From Escherichia coli (GTDB lineage: Bacteria; Pseudomonadota; Gammaproteobacteria; Enterobacterales; Enterobacteriaceae): a stretch of DNA of 64,000 bases. Made by a program: the position numbers. Numbering within the stretch: position 1 is the stretch's first letter; each line of letters opens with the position of its first letter. Positions 45,001 through 60,000 of this stretch are shown one piece after another. The stretch lies in NCBI RefSeq assembly GCF_001677475.2, contig NZ_CP015229.1; one strand, given 5' to 3'.

Positions 45001-48000
45001 ACCTGGAAAGTGGAAGAAGATCACTTCACCGTTAAAGCACTGGTGAATGCCTACGAAGGTCTGTTTGGCAAAGCGCCGGTTGTTGATAAGTGGACCTTCT
45101 CAACTAACGGCGTATCTATCATGGGCCGTCACGGCATTCCGGTGATCGGCTTTGGCCCAGGTAAAGAACCTGAAGCGCATGCACCTAACGAAAAAACCTG
45201 GAAATCTCACCTGGTGACCTGTGCCGCGATGTACGCGGCAATCCCGTTAAGCTGGCTGGCAACCGAATAATTACTCTTCACTTATTCCCCTCCGGTTCGC
45301 CGGAGGGTTTTTGGAGTTTGCTATGCGCGTATTGATCAAAAACGGCACTGTCGTTAACGCAGATGGACAAGCCAAACAGGATTTGCTGATTGAAAGCGGG
45401 ATTGTTCGCCAGTTGGGCAACAATATTTCGCCGCAGCTCCCGTATGAAGAAATTGATGCCACTGGCTGTTACGTTTTCCCTGGCGGCGTGGATGTCCATA
45501 CGCATTTCAATATTGATGTCGGCATCGCGCGCAGTTGTGATGATTTTTTTACCGGTACCCGCGCAGCTGCGTGTGGCGGTACAACAACCATTATTGACCA
45601 TATGGGATTTGGCCCAAACGGCTGTCGGTTACGCCATCAACTGGAGGTTTATCGTGGCTATGCCGCCCATAAGGCGGTCATCGACTACAGCTTTCATGGT
45701 GTGATCCAGCACATTAATCACGCCATCCTCGACGAAATCCCTATGATGGTCGAGGAAGGGCTGAGCAGTTTTAAACTCTATTTAACCTATCAATACAAAC
45801 TCAACGATGACGAGGTTTTGCAGGCATTACGCCGTCTGCATGAATCCGGCGCGCTGACCACCGTGCACCCGGAAAATGATGCAGCTATCGCCAGCAAGCG
45901 GGCGGAGTTTATCGCCGCAGGGTTAACCGCGCCGCGCTATCACGCCTTGAGTCGCCCTCTGGAATGCGAAGCGGAAGCCATCGCCCGCATGATTAACCTG
46001 GCACAAATTGCCGGTAACGCCCCGCTCTATATCGTGCACCTGTCTAACGGCTTAGGTCTGGATTATCTGCGTCTTGCCCGTGCGAATCACCAGCCAGTCT
46101 GGGTTGAAACCTGCCCACAATATCTCCTGTTGGACGAACGCAGTTACGATACAGAAGATGGCATGAAGTTCATTCTTAGCCCACCGCTGCGTAACGTACG
46201 CGAGCAGGACAAACTGTGGTGTGGCATCAGCGATGGTGCGATTGATGTGGTGGCGACCGATCACTGCACCTTCTCGATGGCGCAACGCCTGCAAATTTCT
46301 AAAGGCGATTTCAGTCGCTGCCCAAATGGCTTACCCGGTGTGGAAAACCGCATGCAGTTACTGTTTTCCAGTGGCGTGATGACGGGACGTATAACACCGG
46401 AACGTTTTGTTGAATTAACCAGCGCAATGCCCGCCAGGCTGTTTGGCCTGTGGCCGCAAAAAGGGATATTAGCGCCCGGTTCCGATGGTGACGTGGTGAT
46501 TATCGACCCACGTCAGAGCCAACAAATTCAGCATCGCCATCTCCACGACAACGCCGACTACTCGCCCTGGGAGGGGTTTACCTGTCAGGGCGCGATTGTC
46601 AGAACATTATCCCGTGGTGAAACGATTTTCTGTGACGGCAGCTTTACAGGCAAAGCCGGGCGAGGTCGTTTCCTGCGACGCAAACCGTTTGTCCCTCCCG
46701 TGCTCTAACCACTGCCAGGGATCTATACACAATCAAGAATGATGAGTGAGGAAAAATGAGTAAGAAAATTGTTCTCGCCCTGGGCGGGAATGCGCTGGGC
46801 GACGACCTGGCCGGACAAATGAAAGCGGTAAAAATTACTTCTCAGGCAATTGTTGATTTAATTGCCCAGGGACATGAGGTCATCGTCACTCACGGTAACG
46901 GGCCACAGGTGGGCATGATTAACCAGGCCTTTGAAGCTGCCGCAAAAACTGAAGCGCACTCGCCAATGCTGCCGATGTCTGTCTGTGTTGCCTTAAGCCA
47001 GGGCTATATTGGTTACGATCTACAAAACGCCTTAAGAGAAGAACTGCTTTCTCGTGGCATTAATAAACCTGTAGCAACGCTGGTTACCCAGGTCGAAGTC
47101 GATGCTAACGATCCGGCATTCCTCAACCCGACCAAGCCGATCGGTTCGTTCTTTACCGAGCAGGAAGCAGAGCAACTGACAAAACAGGGTTACACTCTGA
47201 AAGAAGATGCTGGTCGCGGCTATCGCCGTGTTGTTGCCTCGCCAAAACCGGTTGATATCATTGAAAAAGAAACGGTTAAAGCTCTGGTAGATGCAGGTCA
47301 GGTGGTGATCACCGTTGGCGGTGGTGGTATTCCTGTTATTCGTGAAGGTAACCATCTGCGTGGTGCCAGCGCGGTTATTGATAAAGACTGGGCCAGCGCC
47401 CGTTTAGCAGAAATGATTGATGCCGATATGCTGATCATTCTGACTGCGGTAGAAAAAGTGGCCATTAACTTCGGTAAAGAGAATGAACAGTGGCTCGATC
47501 GCCTGTCATTAAGTGATGCTGAACGCTTTATCGAAGAAGGTCATTTTGCGAAAGGTTCTATGCTGCCTAAAGTGGAAGCAGCCGCCTCGTTTGCTCGCTC
47601 TCGCGCAGGTCGTGAAGCACTGATTACCGTATTGAGCAAAGCGAAAGAAGGGATTGAAGGCAAAACCGGAACGGTGATTTGTCAGTAATTTAAAGGCCGG
47701 GTGGGTAATACCATCCGGCCATTTTCATTTAAGCCACTTCCAGCACTTCTTTTGTCGCTTTAACGCCCTGATGCATCAACATCATTAACGCCTCAAGTAC
47801 GCCGCCGCCAATTGCCCGGGCTTTATCAGAAACGCTGGTGAAATCAGCCGTTTCACCACGTGGATCGATATCACCAATTTTAAAACCACCGACCACCGCC
47901 AGTCCGTCGTTCAACAAGCCACGCACCATCCCCGTCAACGGTGCTTTAATTTCATGCTCACCAATCCAGGCAATCACATCGCCCTCTTTCACCAGATCGC

Positions 48001-57000: not shown

Positions 57001-60000
57001 TATGTTGAAGACCGCATAACGGCTGACGCCTGCGTCATTAAAATGTTACGTAGCCCACACGCTCACGCACTGATTACTCATCTGGATGTCAGCAAAGCTG
57101 AAGCCTTACCGGGCGTCGTTCACGTTATTACTCACCTGAATTGCCCGGATATCTACTATACCCCGGGTGGTCAGAGCGCACCGGAACCGTCACCGCTTGA
57201 CCGCCGTATGTTCGGCAAGAAAATGCGTCATGTCGGCGATCGTGTTGCTGCGGTCGTCGCAGAAAGTGAAGAAATTGCGCTCGAAGCACTGAAGCTCATC
57301 GACGTTGAATATGAAGTGCTTAAGCCGGTAATGTCGATCGACGAAGCAATGGCGGAAGATGCGCCTGTCGTGCACGATGAACCAGTGGTGTATGTTGCTG
57401 GTGCGCCAGATACTCTGGAAGACGATAACAGCCATGCAGCCCAGCGCGGCGAGCATATGATCATCAACTTCCCGATCGGTTCTCGCCCTCGCAAAAATAT
57501 CGCTGCCAGTATTCATGGTCATATTGGCGATATGGACAAAGGCTTTGCCGATGCCGATGTGATCATTGAGAGAACCTATAACTCAACGCAGGCACAGCAG
57601 TGCCCGACTGAAACACATATCTGCTTTACCCGGATGGACGGCGATCGTCTGGTTATCCACGCCTCCACCCAGGTACCATGGCACTTACGCCGCCAGGTCG
57701 CGCGCCTCGTGGGCATGAAACAGCATAAAGTTCATGTCATTAAAGAGCGAGTTGGCGGCGGTTTTGGTTCCAAACAGGACATCCTGCTGGAAGAAGTGTG
57801 CGCCTGGGCAACCTGCGTGACCGGGCGTCCGGTACTGTTCCGCTACACCCGTGAAGAAGAGTTTATTGCTAACACCTCTCGTCACGTCGCGAAAGTCACC
57901 GTCAAACTGGGAGCGAAAAAAGATGGTCGCCTGACGGCAGTGAAGATGGATTTCCGCGCCAACACTGGCCCTTACGGCAACCACTCACTCACCGTACCGT
58001 GTAACGGACCGGCGCTGTCGCTGCCGTTATATCCGTGCGATAACGTCGATTTCCAGGTCACCACCTACTACAGCAACATTTGCCCAAATGGTGCTTATCA
58101 GGGTTATGGCGCACCGAAAGGTAACTTCGCTATCACCATGGCATTAGCGGAACTGGCTGAACAGTTACAGATCGACCAACTGGAAATTATCGAACGTAAC
58201 CGGGTACACGAAGGGCAAGAGCTGAAAATTCTCGGTGCAATCGGTGAAGGTAAAGCGCCGACCTCTGTTCCTTCCGCCGCCAGCTGCGCACTGGAAGAGA
58301 TCCTGCGTCAGGGGCGCGAGATGATCCAATGGTCGTCACCGAAACCGCAAAATGGTGACTGGCATATCGGTCGCGGCGTCGCCATTATCATGCAGAAATC
58401 GGGGATCCCGGATATCGATCAGGCTAACTGCATGATCAAACTGGAATCGGACGGTACCTTTATCGTTCATTCTGGAGGTGCGGATATTGGTACTGGTCTG
58501 GATACTGTGGTGACGAAACTGGCAGCAGAAGTGCTGCACTGCCCACCGCAGGACGTGCATGTTATCTCCGGTGATACCGATCATGCCTTGTTTGATAAAG
58601 GCGCATATGCCTCGTCCGGTACTTGCTTCTCGGGTAACGCGGCGCGTTTAGCAGCGGAAAATCTGCGGGAGAAAATTCTGTTCCACGGCGCGCAAATGTT
58701 GGGTGAGCCAGTGGCAGATGTTCAACTAGCAACGCCGGGCGTCGTGCGCGGCAAGAAAGGCGAAGTTAGTTTCGGGGATATTGCCCATAAAGGCGAAACC
58801 GGCACCGGCTTTGGTTCACTGGTGGGAACTGGCAGTTATATCACGCCTGATTTCGCCTTCACGTATGGCGCAAACTTCGCTGAAGTTGCCGTCAATACGC
58901 GTACGGGTGAAATCCGCCTGGATAAATTCTACGCCTTGCTGGACTGCGGTACACCGGTCAATCCAGAGTTAGCGTTGGGACAAATCTACGGTGCCACCCT
59001 GCGTGCTATCGGCCACAGTATGAGCGAAGAGATCATTTATGACGCCGAAGGTCACCCGTTAACGCGTGATTTACGCAGTTACGGCGCACCGAAAATTGGT
59101 GACATTCCGCGTGATTTCCGCGCTGTGTTGGTGCCGAGCGACGATAAAGTCGGCCCGTTCGGGGCAAAATCGATCTCGGAAATCGGTGTAAATGGCGCAG
59201 CTCCGGCGATTGCTACCGCAATTCACGATGCCTGCGGCATCTGGTTACGCGAATGGCATTTCACACCGGAGAAAATACTCACCGCGCTGGAAAAAATATA
59301 AGTAATAAATGGCCGCTTCGGCGGCCTGTTTCTCTGTTTGAACGATGACTAAATAGTGACTGCGAAAATGAGATAAGCCGTTCTCAAGGCGTCCTGCGCC
59401 CCAAATTCGTGGGAATTTATTTTACTAATTCAGATGATCAAATTTACTTTAAAAGGAGTGAAGGGATGTCTGATATAAACCATGCAGGTTCTGACCTTAT
59501 ATTTGAACTGGAGGATCGCCCTCCCTTTCATCAGGCTCTCGTTGGTGCCATTACCCATCTGTTGGCAATTTTTGTTCCGATGGTAACCCCCGCGTTAATC
59601 GTGGGTGCAGCCTTACAGCTTTCCGCTGAAACAACCGCCTATCTTGTTTCTATGGCGATGATCGCCTCTGGTATTGGTACCTGGTTACAAGTAAACCGCT
59701 ACGGCATCGTCGGTTCTGGCCTACTCTCAATTCAGTCAGTCAATTTTTCATTTGTTACGGTCATGATTGCGCTGGGCAGCAGCATGAAAAGCGACGGTTT
59801 TCACGAAGAGTTAATCATGTCGTCGCTCCTCGGCGTCTCCTTCGTTGGCGCATTTCTGGTTGTCGGATCTTCATTTATCTTGCCCTATTTACGTCGGGTT
59901 ATTACGCCTACCGTCAGCGGTATTGTGGTACTGATGATCGGCTTAAGCCTGATTAAAGTCGGCATTATCGATTTTGGTGGAGGATTTGCAGCCAAAAGCA

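What the first reader, a model, noticed from the sequence alone, without database searches (positions are those of the whole stretch)
47729..59301. Selenium-dependent molybdenum hydroxylase signature cluster (yqeB-yqeC / mocA-ygfK-ssnA-ygfM-xdhD)
yqeB and yqeC are known comparative-genomic markers for molybdenum hydroxylases that use a labile selenium cofactor. They sit divergently from mocA (MCD cofactor synthesis) and a ygfK-ssnA-ygfM-xdhD operon whose junctions are tightly coupled (2-nt gap, ATGA overlap). The actual substrate and the Se-insertion chemistry remain poorly defined.
Basis: established knowledge. Interest (0 to 1): 0.55.

Follow-up and report, generated by a model that had tools for sequence, protein, structure and literature searches.

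The report
E. coli anaerobic urate-breakdown, selenium-molybdenum cluster
This is the well-known E. coli gene cluster that starts the oxygen-free breakdown of uric acid and matures its molybdenum (probably selenium-containing) cofactor; it is ordinary, except that its key enzyme XdhD has lost every iron-sulfur ligand, which leaves its electron supply unexplained.

Summary
All seven ORFs sit at the stated coordinates, are intact, pass NCBIfam curated cut-offs and are under purifying selection. The 2-nt ygfK/ssnA gap and the ATGA ygfM/xdhD overlap are real. The window is E. coli: its proteins exactly match GenBank E. coli entries, and about 95% of complete E. coli genomes carry the region.

2025 papers showed that XdhD-YgfM reduces urate to 2,8-dioxopurine, and that YgfK plus SsnA then reduce and open the ring. 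Selenium (selD, yqeB) dependence was shown for clostridial orthologues, not directly for E. coli XdhD. How selenium is inserted is still unknown.

New here:
- YqeC models as a SIMIBI P-loop NTPase with an invariant Cys.
- The YqeB marker domain models as a Rossmann-like fold plus a biotinyl-carrier-like barrel. It is fused to or adjacent to an XdhC-type Moco chaperone across phyla.
- The published σ54 promoters are conserved, and each lies downstream of a conserved palindrome (a candidate YgeV site).
- Unexpectedly, the XdhD N-terminal "[2Fe-2S]" domains lack all eight Cys ligands. This is conserved in proteobacterial orthologues but not in 37 of 44 fused representative relatives. It leaves the FAD-to-Mo electron path open.

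Verdict: already known; modest interest.

The parts
47695..47720 (.). GC-rich hairpin between the convergent yqeA and yqeB genes (bidirectional terminator-like)
   Evidence: 10-bp stem with 8 GC pairs, followed by a T-rich tail.
47729..49354 (-). yqeB, 541 aa. The N-terminal part is an XdhC-type Moco chaperone domain (aa 12-247). The C-terminal part is the TIGR03309 'selenium marker' domain (aa 271-526).
   Evidence: NCBIfam TIGR03309, 417 bits. Pfam XdhC_CoxI and XdhC_C. PDB 2we7 XdhC-like, E=8e-27. AF2 model of the C-terminal domain, pLDDT 92.4, is a Rossmann-like fold plus a biotinyl/lipoyl-like barrel.
49402..50172 (-). yqeC, 256 aa, GTG start. Predicted SIMIBI-class P-loop NTPase with Walker A GAGGKTS (27-33) and an invariant H136-E137-P138-C139.
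49755..49771 (-). Intragenic σ54 promoter inside yqeC that drives yqeB (TGAGCACGAACCTTGCA)
   Evidence: Exact match to the site validated in K-12 by ChIP, mutation, qRT-PCR and western blot (PMC4591121).
50275..50853 (+). mocA (ygfJ), molybdenum cofactor cytidylyltransferase; it makes the MCD form of Moco
   Evidence: TIGR03310 equivalog, 210.6 bits against a cut-off of 186.45.
50905..50917 (.). Perfect palindrome TATCATAATGATA, 181 bp upstream of the ygfK σ54 promoter. Candidate upstream activator site for the σ54 activator YgeV (inferred).
   Evidence: The pattern has 3 distinct sites in the window, counted as 5 matches over both strands, against 0.28 matches expected. A copy lies in the same mocA-ygfK interval in seven other genera, and a recognisable σ54 element follows 160-185 bp downstream in five of them.
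51086..51102 (+). σ54 promoter of ygfK (GTGGTGCGATTGTTGCT)
   Evidence: Exact match to the ChIP-seq site OS31 in K-12 (PMC4591121). The element is conserved in Kluyvera, Cedecea, Edwardsiella and Morganella.
51175..54273 (+). ygfK, 1032 aa. NAD(P)H:2,8-dioxopurine oxidoreductase (DOPOR), an Fe-S flavoprotein.
   Evidence: TIGR03315, 1776 bits. Pfam Fer4_20 and Pyr_redox_2, with weak 4Fe-4S dicluster hits. Function taken.
54276..55604 (+). ssnA, 442 aa. Amidohydrolase that opens the reduced purine ring. It starts 2 nt after the ygfK stop.
   Evidence: TIGR03314, 740 bits. Junction read. Biochemical coupling to YgfK reported in PMC12507026.
55614..55638 (+). Perfect 11-bp stem / 3-nt loop hairpin in the 50-nt ssnA-ygfM spacer. 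No U-run follows it in the sense direction.
   Evidence: RNA fold -19.9 kcal/mol, z = -4.5, and 0 of 200 shuffles fold as well. Also seen.
55655..56434 (+). ygfM, 259 aa. FAD-binding subunit that partners XdhD.
   Evidence: TIGR03312, 485 bits. Pfam FAD_binding_5 and CO_deh_flav_C. FAD-type motifs AGGS and TIGGE are present. A ~30 kDa protein, putatively YgfM, co-purifies with XdhD.
56431..59301 (+). xdhD, 956 aa. Molybdenum subunit of urate reductase / 2,8-dioxopurine dehydrogenase. Its start overlaps the ygfM stop (ATGA).
   Evidence: TIGR03313, 2116 bits. Pfam Fer2_2, Ald_Xan_dh_C, MoCoBD_1 and MoCoBD_2. Glu606 is present. Function taken.
56431..56925 (+). XdhD residues 1-165. This domain is homologous to the two-[2Fe-2S] subunit of xanthine-oxidase-family enzymes, but all eight Cys ligands are replaced (D/A/D/S and S/N/S/D).
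   Evidence: Alignment to the solved nicotinate dehydrogenase FeS subunit 3hrd_D, E=1.7e-16. Survey of 150 representative homologues.
59311..59326 (+). Terminator-like hairpin GGCCGCTTCGGCGGCC plus a T-rich tail, after xdhD
35600..47688 (.). Outside the stated coordinates but part of the same system: xdhABC (35600-39262, +), the σ54 activator ygeV (39302-41080, -), and the lower pathway operon ygeW-ygeX(dpaL)-ygeY-hyuA-yqeA (41557-47688, +). σ54 sites lie at 35528-35544 and 41450-41466.
   Evidence: NCBIfam cut-offs are passed for eight of these genes. ygeV matches only σ54-activator families, below their cut-offs. Annotation of the 98%-identical E. coli 042 region. σ54 sites located.

Best explanation
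The region is the upper module of the E. coli reductive uric-acid (2,8-dioxopurine) pathway, together with the genes that mature its molybdenum cofactor.

Shown by orthology to characterised K-12 proteins:
- MocA converts Mo-MPT to the cytosine dinucleotide cofactor (MCD).
- XdhD, with the FAD subunit YgfM, removes the C6 oxygen of urate to give 2,8-dioxopurine.
- YgfK reduces that purine with NAD(P)H, and the translationally coupled SsnA immediately hydrolyses the ring.
- The neighbouring ygeW-yqeA operon finishes the pathway, yielding pyruvate, ammonia and ATP.

Shown in K-12 and conserved here: transcription is σ54-dependent, from a promoter before ygfK and from an internal promoter in yqeC that drives yqeB.

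Inferred:
- The σ54 activator YgeV acts at these promoters, probably through a conserved TATCA-N3-TGATA palindrome about 180 bp upstream.
- YqeB holds MCD on its XdhC-like N-terminal domain. Its C-terminal Rossmann-plus-barrel domain, together with the P-loop NTPase YqeC, uses SelD-made selenophosphate to put a terminal selenium ligand on Mo in place of the usual sulfido ligand. YqeB then inserts the cofactor into XdhD, and probably XdhA.

Unresolved: XdhD has no Fe-S ligands, so the route electrons take from the YgfM flavin to Mo is unknown.
For: - Gene identities.
- The proteins match E. coli GenBank entries exactly.
- Purifying selection.
- Enzyme functions: PMC12507026 and bioRxiv 10.1101/2025.04.24.650524.
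- Coupling: the 2-nt ygfK/ssnA gap mirrors the finding that YgfK gives product only when SsnA is present. The ATGA ygfM/xdhD overlap mirrors the co-purification of XdhD with a ~30 kDa protein, putatively YgfM.
- σ54 promoters match exactly. The palindrome is conserved upstream in other genera.
[quoted passage not shown] DOPDH purified from a C. sporogenes selD mutant is inactive. C. difficile ΔyqeB phenocopies selD mutants. Proteobacterial urate use needs added Mo and Se. selD is present in 5425 of 5426 complete E. coli genomes.
- Maturation-module anatomy: in 26 non-Collinsella loci from several phyla, the YqeB marker domain has an XdhC-like domain in the locus in 24 (directly upstream or fused in 19) and YqeC in 24. 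A fusion to a MocA-type nucleotidyltransferase also exists (P0234).
- Fold evidence.
Against: - No experiment shows selenium in E. coli XdhD. Li et al. obtained active XdhD-YgfM without mentioning selenium.
- C. difficile ΔyqeC has no clear phenotype, so the role of YqeC may be auxiliary.
- The YqeB marker domain has no invariant Cys that could carry selenium.
- selD lies next to yqeB in only 2 of 80 loci.
- The Se requirement in Proteobacteria is confounded by the selenoprotein formate dehydrogenase H, which feeds formate-dependent urate use. That link rests on my own knowledge.
- The Cys-less Fe-S-like domain fits poorly with the simple NADH-to-FAD-to-Mo scheme that the published model assumes.
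Confidence: 0.8

Rival explanations
1. In E. coli, YqeB is simply the shared XdhC-type sulfur chaperone for XdhABC and XdhD. The enzymes carry the ordinary Mo=S ligand, and the selenium association of the marker domain does not apply, or is vestigial, in this species.
For: The YqeB N-terminal half is a bona fide XdhC-like domain. Neumann & Leimkühler proposed exactly this role (PMC2997495). The xdhABC and xdhD loci lack any other XdhC homologue. Active XdhD was purified with no mention of selenium. Haft & Self conceded that no labile-selenium enzyme had been observed in E. coli.
Against: The C-terminal marker domain is 55-60% identical between E. coli and Moorella, so it is under strong constraint. 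pN/pS is about 0.05. The domain is restricted to selD-positive genomes. Proteobacterial urate utilisation needed Se supplementation. The clostridial orthologue of XdhD is inactive without selD.
Confidence: 0.15
2. ygfK-ygfM-xdhD encode a selenate reductase, which is the origin of the current NCBI product name for YgfK. On this reading yqeB/yqeC and SelD serve selenium detoxification or assimilation rather than purine catabolism.
For: NCBIfam and RefSeq still name YgfK 'putative selenate reductase subunit'. The name derives from Bébien et al. 2002, as cited.
Against: Selenate was neither required for YgfK activity nor stimulated it; YgfK specifically reduces 2,8-dioxopurine. XdhD-YgfM reduces urate. 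ΔxdhD and ΔygfK mutants have the matching purine phenotypes. Haft & Self had already found the phylogenetic profile inconsistent with this role. The genes are embedded in a complete purine pathway with purine transporters.
Confidence: 0.04
3. XdhD-YgfM is not the complete physiological enzyme. Because XdhD has no Fe-S clusters, a separate Fe-S protein supplies electrons in vivo (XdhC, YgfK, or the formate-linked YgfS/YgfT or AegA). On this reading the reported NADH activity is a slow side reaction. This complements the main explanation rather than excluding it.
For: All eight cluster ligands are absent from XdhD and its orthologues. The published assay used 10 µM enzyme. Formate-dependent urate degradation requires AegA and YgfT. 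ygfS and ygfT lie just downstream of the cluster.
Against: XdhD co-purifies with a ~30 kDa protein, putatively YgfM, and makes 2,8-dioxopurine with NADH alone. An AlphaFold3 XdhD-YgfM heterodimer is predicted with ipTM 0.94. The Cys-less forms examined (E. coli, six orthologues, P0286) and the half-Cys form P0291 are all encoded next to a FAD-subunit gene. That argues the flavin subunit is functionally important.
Confidence: 0.3

Closest known systems
E. coli K-12 yqeB-yqeC / mocA(ygfJ)-ygfK-ssnA-ygfM-xdhD (b2875-b2881), part of the 23-gene purine catabolism region
   Same: Same genes, order, strands and junctions, and the same σ54 promoter sequences. The proteins are exact matches to GenBank E. 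coli entries.
   Different: Differences are allelic only. The 3' part of ssnA (about 54800-55600) is about 8% diverged from the compared E. coli 042 allele, and the whole gene is at most 95.3% identical to any of the 5181 complete genomes that carry it. xdhD is intact here, whereas strain 042 has an internal stop at codon 294.
Clostridium sporogenes 2,8-dioxopurine dehydrogenase (DOPDH, XdhAC) and DOPOR (YgfK)
   Same: Same first two reactions of anaerobic urate degradation. Same association with YqeB, YqeC and SelD.
   Different: The clostridial enzyme has Fe-S-binding domains and does not use NAD(P)H; it was assayed with methyl viologen, and no FAD subunit is reported for it. Li et al. state that C. 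difficile XdhD lacks a YgfM subunit. The E. coli type has a FAD subunit, uses NADH, and has no Fe-S ligands. selD dependence has been shown only for the clostridial enzyme.
Eubacterium barkeri nicotinate dehydrogenase (PDB 3HRD), the structurally characterised selenium-dependent molybdenum hydroxylase
   Same: Xanthine-oxidase family. Its small FeS subunit is the best solved-structure match to the XdhD N-terminal domain (E=1.7e-16). Its Mo subunits also match XdhD. That this enzyme carries a terminal Mo=Se ligand and uses the MCD cofactor rests on my own knowledge.
   Different: NDH keeps all eight Cys ligands, whereas XdhD has none. The substrate differs, and NDH is built from four subunits.
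XdhC / PaoD family Moco sulfuration-insertion chaperones (R. capsulatus XdhC)
   Same: YqeB residues 12-247 carry the XdhC_CoxI and XdhC_C domains and match solved XdhC-like proteins 2we7 and 3on5.
   Different: YqeB scores below the curated cut-offs of the XdhC equivalogs (109.7 against 161.6). It also carries an extra 270-residue marker domain that is restricted to selD-positive genomes.
SIMIBI-class metallocentre-assembly NTPases (UreG, HypB, CooC) and SRP-type GTPases
   Different: Sequence identity is only 10-18%, and no solved homologue is detectable by sequence. YqeC has a family-specific invariant HEPC motif. Its nucleotide specificity and function are untested.

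Membership tests
Selenium-dependent molybdenum hydroxylase (SDMH) trait, as defined by Haft & Self 2008 | A xanthine-oxidase-family molybdenum-binding subunit is encoded in the locus | tested here: met
   XdhD: TIGR03313, 2116 bits; Pfam MoCoBD_1, MoCoBD_2 and Ald_Xan_dh_C. XdhA is also in the window.
Selenium-dependent molybdenum hydroxylase (SDMH) trait, as defined by Haft & Self 2008 | YqeB-type TIGR03309 marker domain | tested here: met
   417.4 bits against a cut-off of 220, covering residues 271-526.
Selenium-dependent molybdenum hydroxylase (SDMH) trait, as defined by Haft & Self 2008 | YqeC-type TIGR03172 protein | tested here: met
   240.8 bits against a cut-off of 73. 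Pfam PF19842.
Selenium-dependent molybdenum hydroxylase (SDMH) trait, as defined by Haft & Self 2008 | selD (selenophosphate synthetase) in the same genome | not testable with these tools
   selD is not in the window and the rest of this genome is not available. At species level, 5425 of 5426 complete E. coli genomes carry selD.
Selenium-dependent molybdenum hydroxylase (SDMH) trait, as defined by Haft & Self 2008 | A labile, non-selenocysteine selenium atom at the Mo centre that is essential for activity | not testable with these tools
   This requires metal analysis and activity assays of enzyme from selD, yqeB and yqeC mutants. It has been shown for the C. sporogenes orthologue but not for E. 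coli XdhD.
2,8-dioxopurine (reductive uric acid) pathway gene cluster | Presence of the XdhD/DOPDH, YgfK/DOPOR and SsnA genes | tested here: met
   The proteins are E. coli alleles of the K-12 enzymes that were characterised biochemically.
2,8-dioxopurine (reductive uric acid) pathway gene cluster | [quoted passage not shown] | tested here: met
   All five pass NCBIfam cut-offs at window 41557-47688.
2,8-dioxopurine (reductive uric acid) pathway gene cluster | Conversion of urate to 2,8-dioxopurine and onward to ureidomethyl-hydantoin | not testable with these tools
   This is biochemical. It was shown for the K-12 and Nissle orthologues.
Canonical xanthine-oxidase-family molybdo-iron-sulfur flavoprotein (XdhABC, PaoABC or CODH type) | Two [2Fe-2S] clusters, each ligated by four conserved Cys | tested here: not met
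   All eight ligand positions in XdhD are D/A/D/S and S/N/S/D. XdhD has only one Cys in its first 170 residues, and that Cys is not conserved.
Canonical xanthine-oxidase-family molybdo-iron-sulfur flavoprotein (XdhABC, PaoABC or CODH type) | FAD-binding subunit or domain (PF00941) | tested here: met
   YgfM: FAD_binding_5, E=4e-20, with AGGS and TIGGE motifs.
XdhC family Moco maturation chaperone | XdhC_CoxI and XdhC_C Rossmann domains | tested here: met
   Pfam E=1e-19 and 9e-33. However, the scores are below the equivalog cut-offs of TIGR02964 and NF045664, so YqeB is a divergent, fused member.
SIMIBI P-loop NTPases | Walker A motif and the SIMIBI α/β fold | tested here: met
Selenate reductase YgfK-YgfM-YgfN (the database name) | Reduction of selenate by the encoded enzyme | not testable with these tools
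   The literature argues against it: selenate is neither needed by YgfK nor stimulates it.

The most novel reading that the evidence does not exclude
The proteobacterial XdhD-YgfM enzyme is a xanthine-oxidase-family member that has lost both [2Fe-2S] clusters yet kept the domains as a conserved scaffold. It would then have to move electrons to a (seleno)molybdenum centre in a way not described for this family. One possibility is an unusually close flavin-pterin arrangement. The other is an external Fe-S partner such as YgfK, YgfS/YgfT or AegA. In parallel, YqeB (XdhC-like domain plus Rossmann and carrier-like barrel) and the NTPase YqeC would form a dedicated machine that installs Se on MCD using selenophosphate.
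Probability: 0.3. Interest if true: 0.65.

Novelty: already known. Interest (0 to 1): 0.35.

Why it matters
The cluster underlies intestinal urate disposal by E. coli and many gut bacteria, which is relevant to gout and to engineered uricolytic probiotics. It also contains the only genetic handles on the least understood route of biological selenium use.

What could matter is practical. E. coli is the easiest organism in which to test whether YqeB, YqeC and SelD put selenium on a molybdenum cofactor. The missing Fe-S ligands in XdhD also mean that the published electron-transfer picture for the first pathway enzyme is probably incomplete. That bears on engineering higher urate flux, and it means the 'Mo/Fe-S-binding subunit' database name is probably wrong about Fe-S.

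Tried and rejected
- **Non-E. coli origin.** The best megablast identity was only 98.2%, so I suspected another Escherichia species. I rejected this. The four proteins looked up (YqeB, YgfK, SsnA, XdhD) are exact matches to E. coli GenBank entries on a 5.5-Mb contig, and the excess divergence is confined to an ~800-bp patch in ssnA.
- **σ54 promoter position.** By eye I first picked TGGCAAGAGTGGTGC near 51078. I replaced it with the ChIP-validated element 8 bp downstream. A generic σ54 pattern scan was not enriched over shuffles.
- **ssnA-ygfM hairpin as a terminator.** Rejected for the sense strand, because no U-run follows it. The σ70 and terminator consensus scans overall were at chance level.
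- **A selenium-carrying Cys in the YqeB marker domain.** None is invariant.
- **selD next to yqeB.** Found in only 2 of 80 loci, so linkage to selD is by co-occurrence, not by neighbourhood.
- **Sequence search of the PDB with YqeC.** No significant hit.
- **A biotinylated or lipoylated Lys in the YqeB barrel.** From my own reading of the sequence and the A2 consensus, the position of the BCCP hairpin Lys is not a conserved Lys. The domain is therefore unlikely to be a true biotin or lipoyl carrier.
- **A G-x-G-E motif around the catalytic Glu in XdhD and XdhA.** The pattern found nothing. I did not pursue active-site mapping further, because the K-12 orthologue is demonstrably active.
- **Literature search for any mention that XdhD lacks Fe-S ligands.** None was found in the library. 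This does not prove that nobody has noted it.

Full report
**Observation.** The junctions were read from the sequence. ygfK ends TAA, two bases (tc) follow, then the ssnA ATG. The xdhD ATG overlaps the ygfM TGA as ATGA. yqeC and mocA diverge across 102 bp. The third operon junction, ssnA-ygfM, was not mentioned. It is a 50-nt spacer containing a perfect 11-bp hairpin (-19.9 kcal/mol, z = -4.5) with no U-run after it, so it is not a sense-strand terminator.

**Origin.** Megablast finds the region in 5185 of 5426 complete E. coli genomes, and 5150 of these cover at least 80% of it, but the best identity is only 98.2%. This is not a foreign species. The four proteins looked up (YqeB, YgfK, SsnA, XdhD) are exact matches to E. 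coli GenBank entries in the ANO90695-ANO90701 range, on a 5.50-Mb contig. The flanks are 98.5-99.1% identical to E. coli. The excess divergence sits in the 3' 800 bp of ssnA. Against E. coli 042 that patch is about 8% diverged, and the whole gene is at most 95.3% identical to any complete genome. None of the seven genes has an internal stop. Against E. coli 042, pN/pS is far below 1 for six of them; yqeC and ygfM have too few substitutions to say much. Strain 042 itself has xdhD annotated as a pseudogene, with a stop at codon 294.

**What it is.**
- Li et al. 2025 (PMC12507026) purified E. coli XdhD, which co-purified with a ~30 kDa protein taken to be YgfM. With NADH it reduces urate to 2,8-dioxopurine.
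- In the same study, YgfK gave product only when SsnA was present, yielding ureidomethyl-hydantoin. The ΔxdhD and ΔygfK phenotypes agreed.
- Liu et al. 2025 (bioRxiv 10.1101/2025.04.24.650524) reached the same pathway in C. sporogenes.
- They also showed that YgfK neither needs selenate nor is stimulated by it. This undercuts the 'selenate reductase' database name.

The tight ygfK/ssnA and ygfM/xdhD junctions therefore mirror a biochemical coupling and a physical complex. The rest of the pathway is in the window just upstream and passes family cut-offs: ygeW, ygeX, ygeY, hyuA and yqeA, plus xdhABC. The σ54 activator gene ygeV lies there too, though it matches σ54-activator families only below their cut-offs. 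Purine transporter genes and guaD follow downstream.

**Selenium.**
- DOPDH purified from a C. sporogenes selD mutant is inactive.
- C. difficile ΔyqeB phenocopies selD mutants, whereas ΔyqeC has no clear phenotype.
- Kasahara et al. noted that Proteobacteria needed added Mo and Se to use urate.
- selD is present in 5425 of 5426 E. coli genomes.
- No paper I could read shows selenium in E. coli XdhD, and Li et al. do not mention selenium.

**Maturation module, new analysis.**
- YqeB is a fusion. Residues 12-247 are an XdhC-type Moco chaperone. Residues 271-526 are the marker domain.
- The marker domain is 55-60% identical between E. coli and Moorella. It mostly occurs alone (~270 aa), sometimes fused to XdhC, and once fused to a MocA-type nucleotidyltransferase.
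- A scan of one genome per species returned 80 loci. Among the 26 non-Collinsella loci (Gammaproteobacteria, Rhodocyclaceae, Spirochaetes, Bacillota, Bacteroidetes, an Archaeoglobi MAG), 24 have an XdhC-like domain in the locus and 19 have it directly upstream or fused. YqeC is present in 24, an XO-family Mo subunit in 14, MocA in 13 and SelD in only 2.
- The YqeC family has an invariant Walker A motif and an invariant HEPC motif.
- From these I infer, but cannot show, the following. YqeB holds MCD on its XdhC-like half. The marker domain and the NTPase YqeC use selenophosphate to install a terminal Se ligand before the cofactor is inserted.

**Regulation.**
- The σ54 elements mapped and validated in K-12 by Bonocora et al. 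(PMC4591121) are conserved exactly. PygfK is at 51086-51102. The promoter inside yqeC that drives yqeB is at 49755-49771.
- PxdhA and PygeW are also present.
- I noticed a palindrome, TATCA-N3-TGA(G/T)A, at 50905, 181 bp upstream of PygfK, and at 41236, 214 bp upstream of PygeW. It has three distinct sites in the window, counted as 5 matches over both strands, against 0.28 matches expected.
- A copy lies in the same ygfK-upstream interval in Kluyvera, Cedecea, two Edwardsiella species, Serratia, Aeromonas and Morganella. A recognisable σ54 element follows it 160-185 bp downstream in five of these seven loci. Before ygeW, the same spacing is 203-227 bp in four of six other loci.
- It is a candidate YgeV binding site. 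This is an inference.

**Unexpected feature.**
- XdhD residues 1-165 are homologous to the two-[2Fe-2S] subunit of this enzyme family. The evidence is NCBIfam XdhC-FeS E=1.4e-17, Pfam Fer2_2, and a best solved match to the FeS subunit of the selenium-dependent nicotinate dehydrogenase 3hrd_D (E=1.7e-16).
- All eight cluster-ligating Cys are nevertheless replaced, by D/A/D/S and S/N/S/D.
- The replacements occur in conserved motifs (SDDGFGFAGSDA, QSGYNDPAA, LFSRDAGW/Y) in Edwardsiella, Serratia, Aeromonas, Morganella and a Rhodocyclaceae MAG.
- The domain is 67-75% identical across these genera, compared with 78-86% for the Mo domain. It is a maintained scaffold, not decay.
- Of 150 representative homologues from 1.84 billion proteins, 44 have a fused N-terminal domain. 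Of these, 37 keep all eight Cys, five (all among the closest relatives, or fragments) have none, and one (P0291) keeps only the second cluster's ligands.
- The Cys-less P0286 and the half-Cys P0291 each sit behind a FAD-subunit gene, whereas the eight-Cys P0290 does not.
- In canonical enzymes the two clusters bridge flavin and molybdenum. Without them, the NADH-to-FAD-to-Mo scheme assumed for XdhD-YgfM needs either a different geometry or an extra Fe-S partner. The published assay used 10 µM enzyme.
- I found no mention of this in the searchable literature. The 'Mo/Fe-S-binding subunit' product name looks wrong for Fe-S.

**Verdict.** The locus is already known and is present in about 95% of complete E. 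coli genomes. The residual interest lies in two open, testable questions: selenium insertion by YqeB and YqeC in a tractable host, and the electron path of a molybdenum enzyme that has no Fe-S ligands.

Noticed in passing
window 56431-56925 (XdhD residues 1-165): The N-terminal [2Fe-2S]-like domains of XdhD lack all eight Cys ligands. The loss is conserved in proteobacterial orthologues, but 37 of 44 fused representative relatives keep all eight. I did not find this mentioned in the papers I could search.
   Followed up: yes
window about 54800-55600 (3' part of ssnA): This ~800-bp patch is about 8% diverged from E. coli 042, and the whole gene is at most 95.3% identical to any of the 5181 complete genomes that carry it, whereas the flanks are 98-99.5% identical. 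The changes are almost all synonymous. It looks like an imported or minor allele. The exact protein is on record on 47 contigs.
   Followed up: partly
L001 16703-19573 (E. coli 042 xdhD): In the enteroaggregative strain 042, xdhD is annotated as a pseudogene with an internal stop at codon 294, where the window has Tyr. I did not count how common xdhD inactivation is among E. coli.
   Followed up: no
window 50905-50917, 41236-41248, 43081-43093, and a 1-mismatch copy at 35397-35409: The palindrome TATCA-N3-TGA(G/T)A lies about 120-215 bp upstream of the σ54 promoters of ygfK, ygeW and xdhA. A copy lies in the same ygfK-upstream interval in seven other genera and is followed by a σ54 element in five of them. 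It is a candidate binding site for the activator YgeV. One more copy lies inside ygeX.
   Followed up: partly
L004 9052, L075 9052, L006 9101, L008 9078: In Edwardsiella, Serratia and Aeromonas the same palindrome also occurs inside yqeC, upstream of yqeB. It might serve an internal yqeB promoter like the one validated in E. coli.
   Followed up: no
window 55614-55638: A perfect 11-bp hairpin (-19.9 kcal/mol) lies in the ssnA-ygfM spacer, with no U-run after it. It may be an mRNA stability or processing element that sets the ratio of ygfK-ssnA to ygfM-xdhD expression.
   Followed up: partly
window about 14000-32000: A long run of minus-strand ORFs, together with annotations of matching genomes (ygeH, PrgH/EprH family), indicates an apparently intact ETT2 type III secretion island upstream of the purine region.
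   Followed up: no
E. coli genome collection: 241 of 5426 complete E. coli genomes have no match to the region at all, and a further 35 have only partial coverage. I did not examine which lineages lost it.
   Followed up: no
P0234 (462 aa) and P0291 / L084: One homologue fuses the YqeB marker domain to a MocA-type nucleotidyltransferase. One XdhD relative (39% identity) keeps only the second cluster's four Cys and is preceded by a FAD-subunit gene with an overlapping start. It may be an evolutionary intermediate.
   Followed up: partly
L069 (Archaeoglobi MAG) 6100-6876: An archaeal MAG encodes the YqeB marker domain at 54% identity, next to xanthine-dehydrogenase-family subunits. The trait therefore crosses domains, in line with the Haloarcula case reported in 2008.
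   Followed up: no
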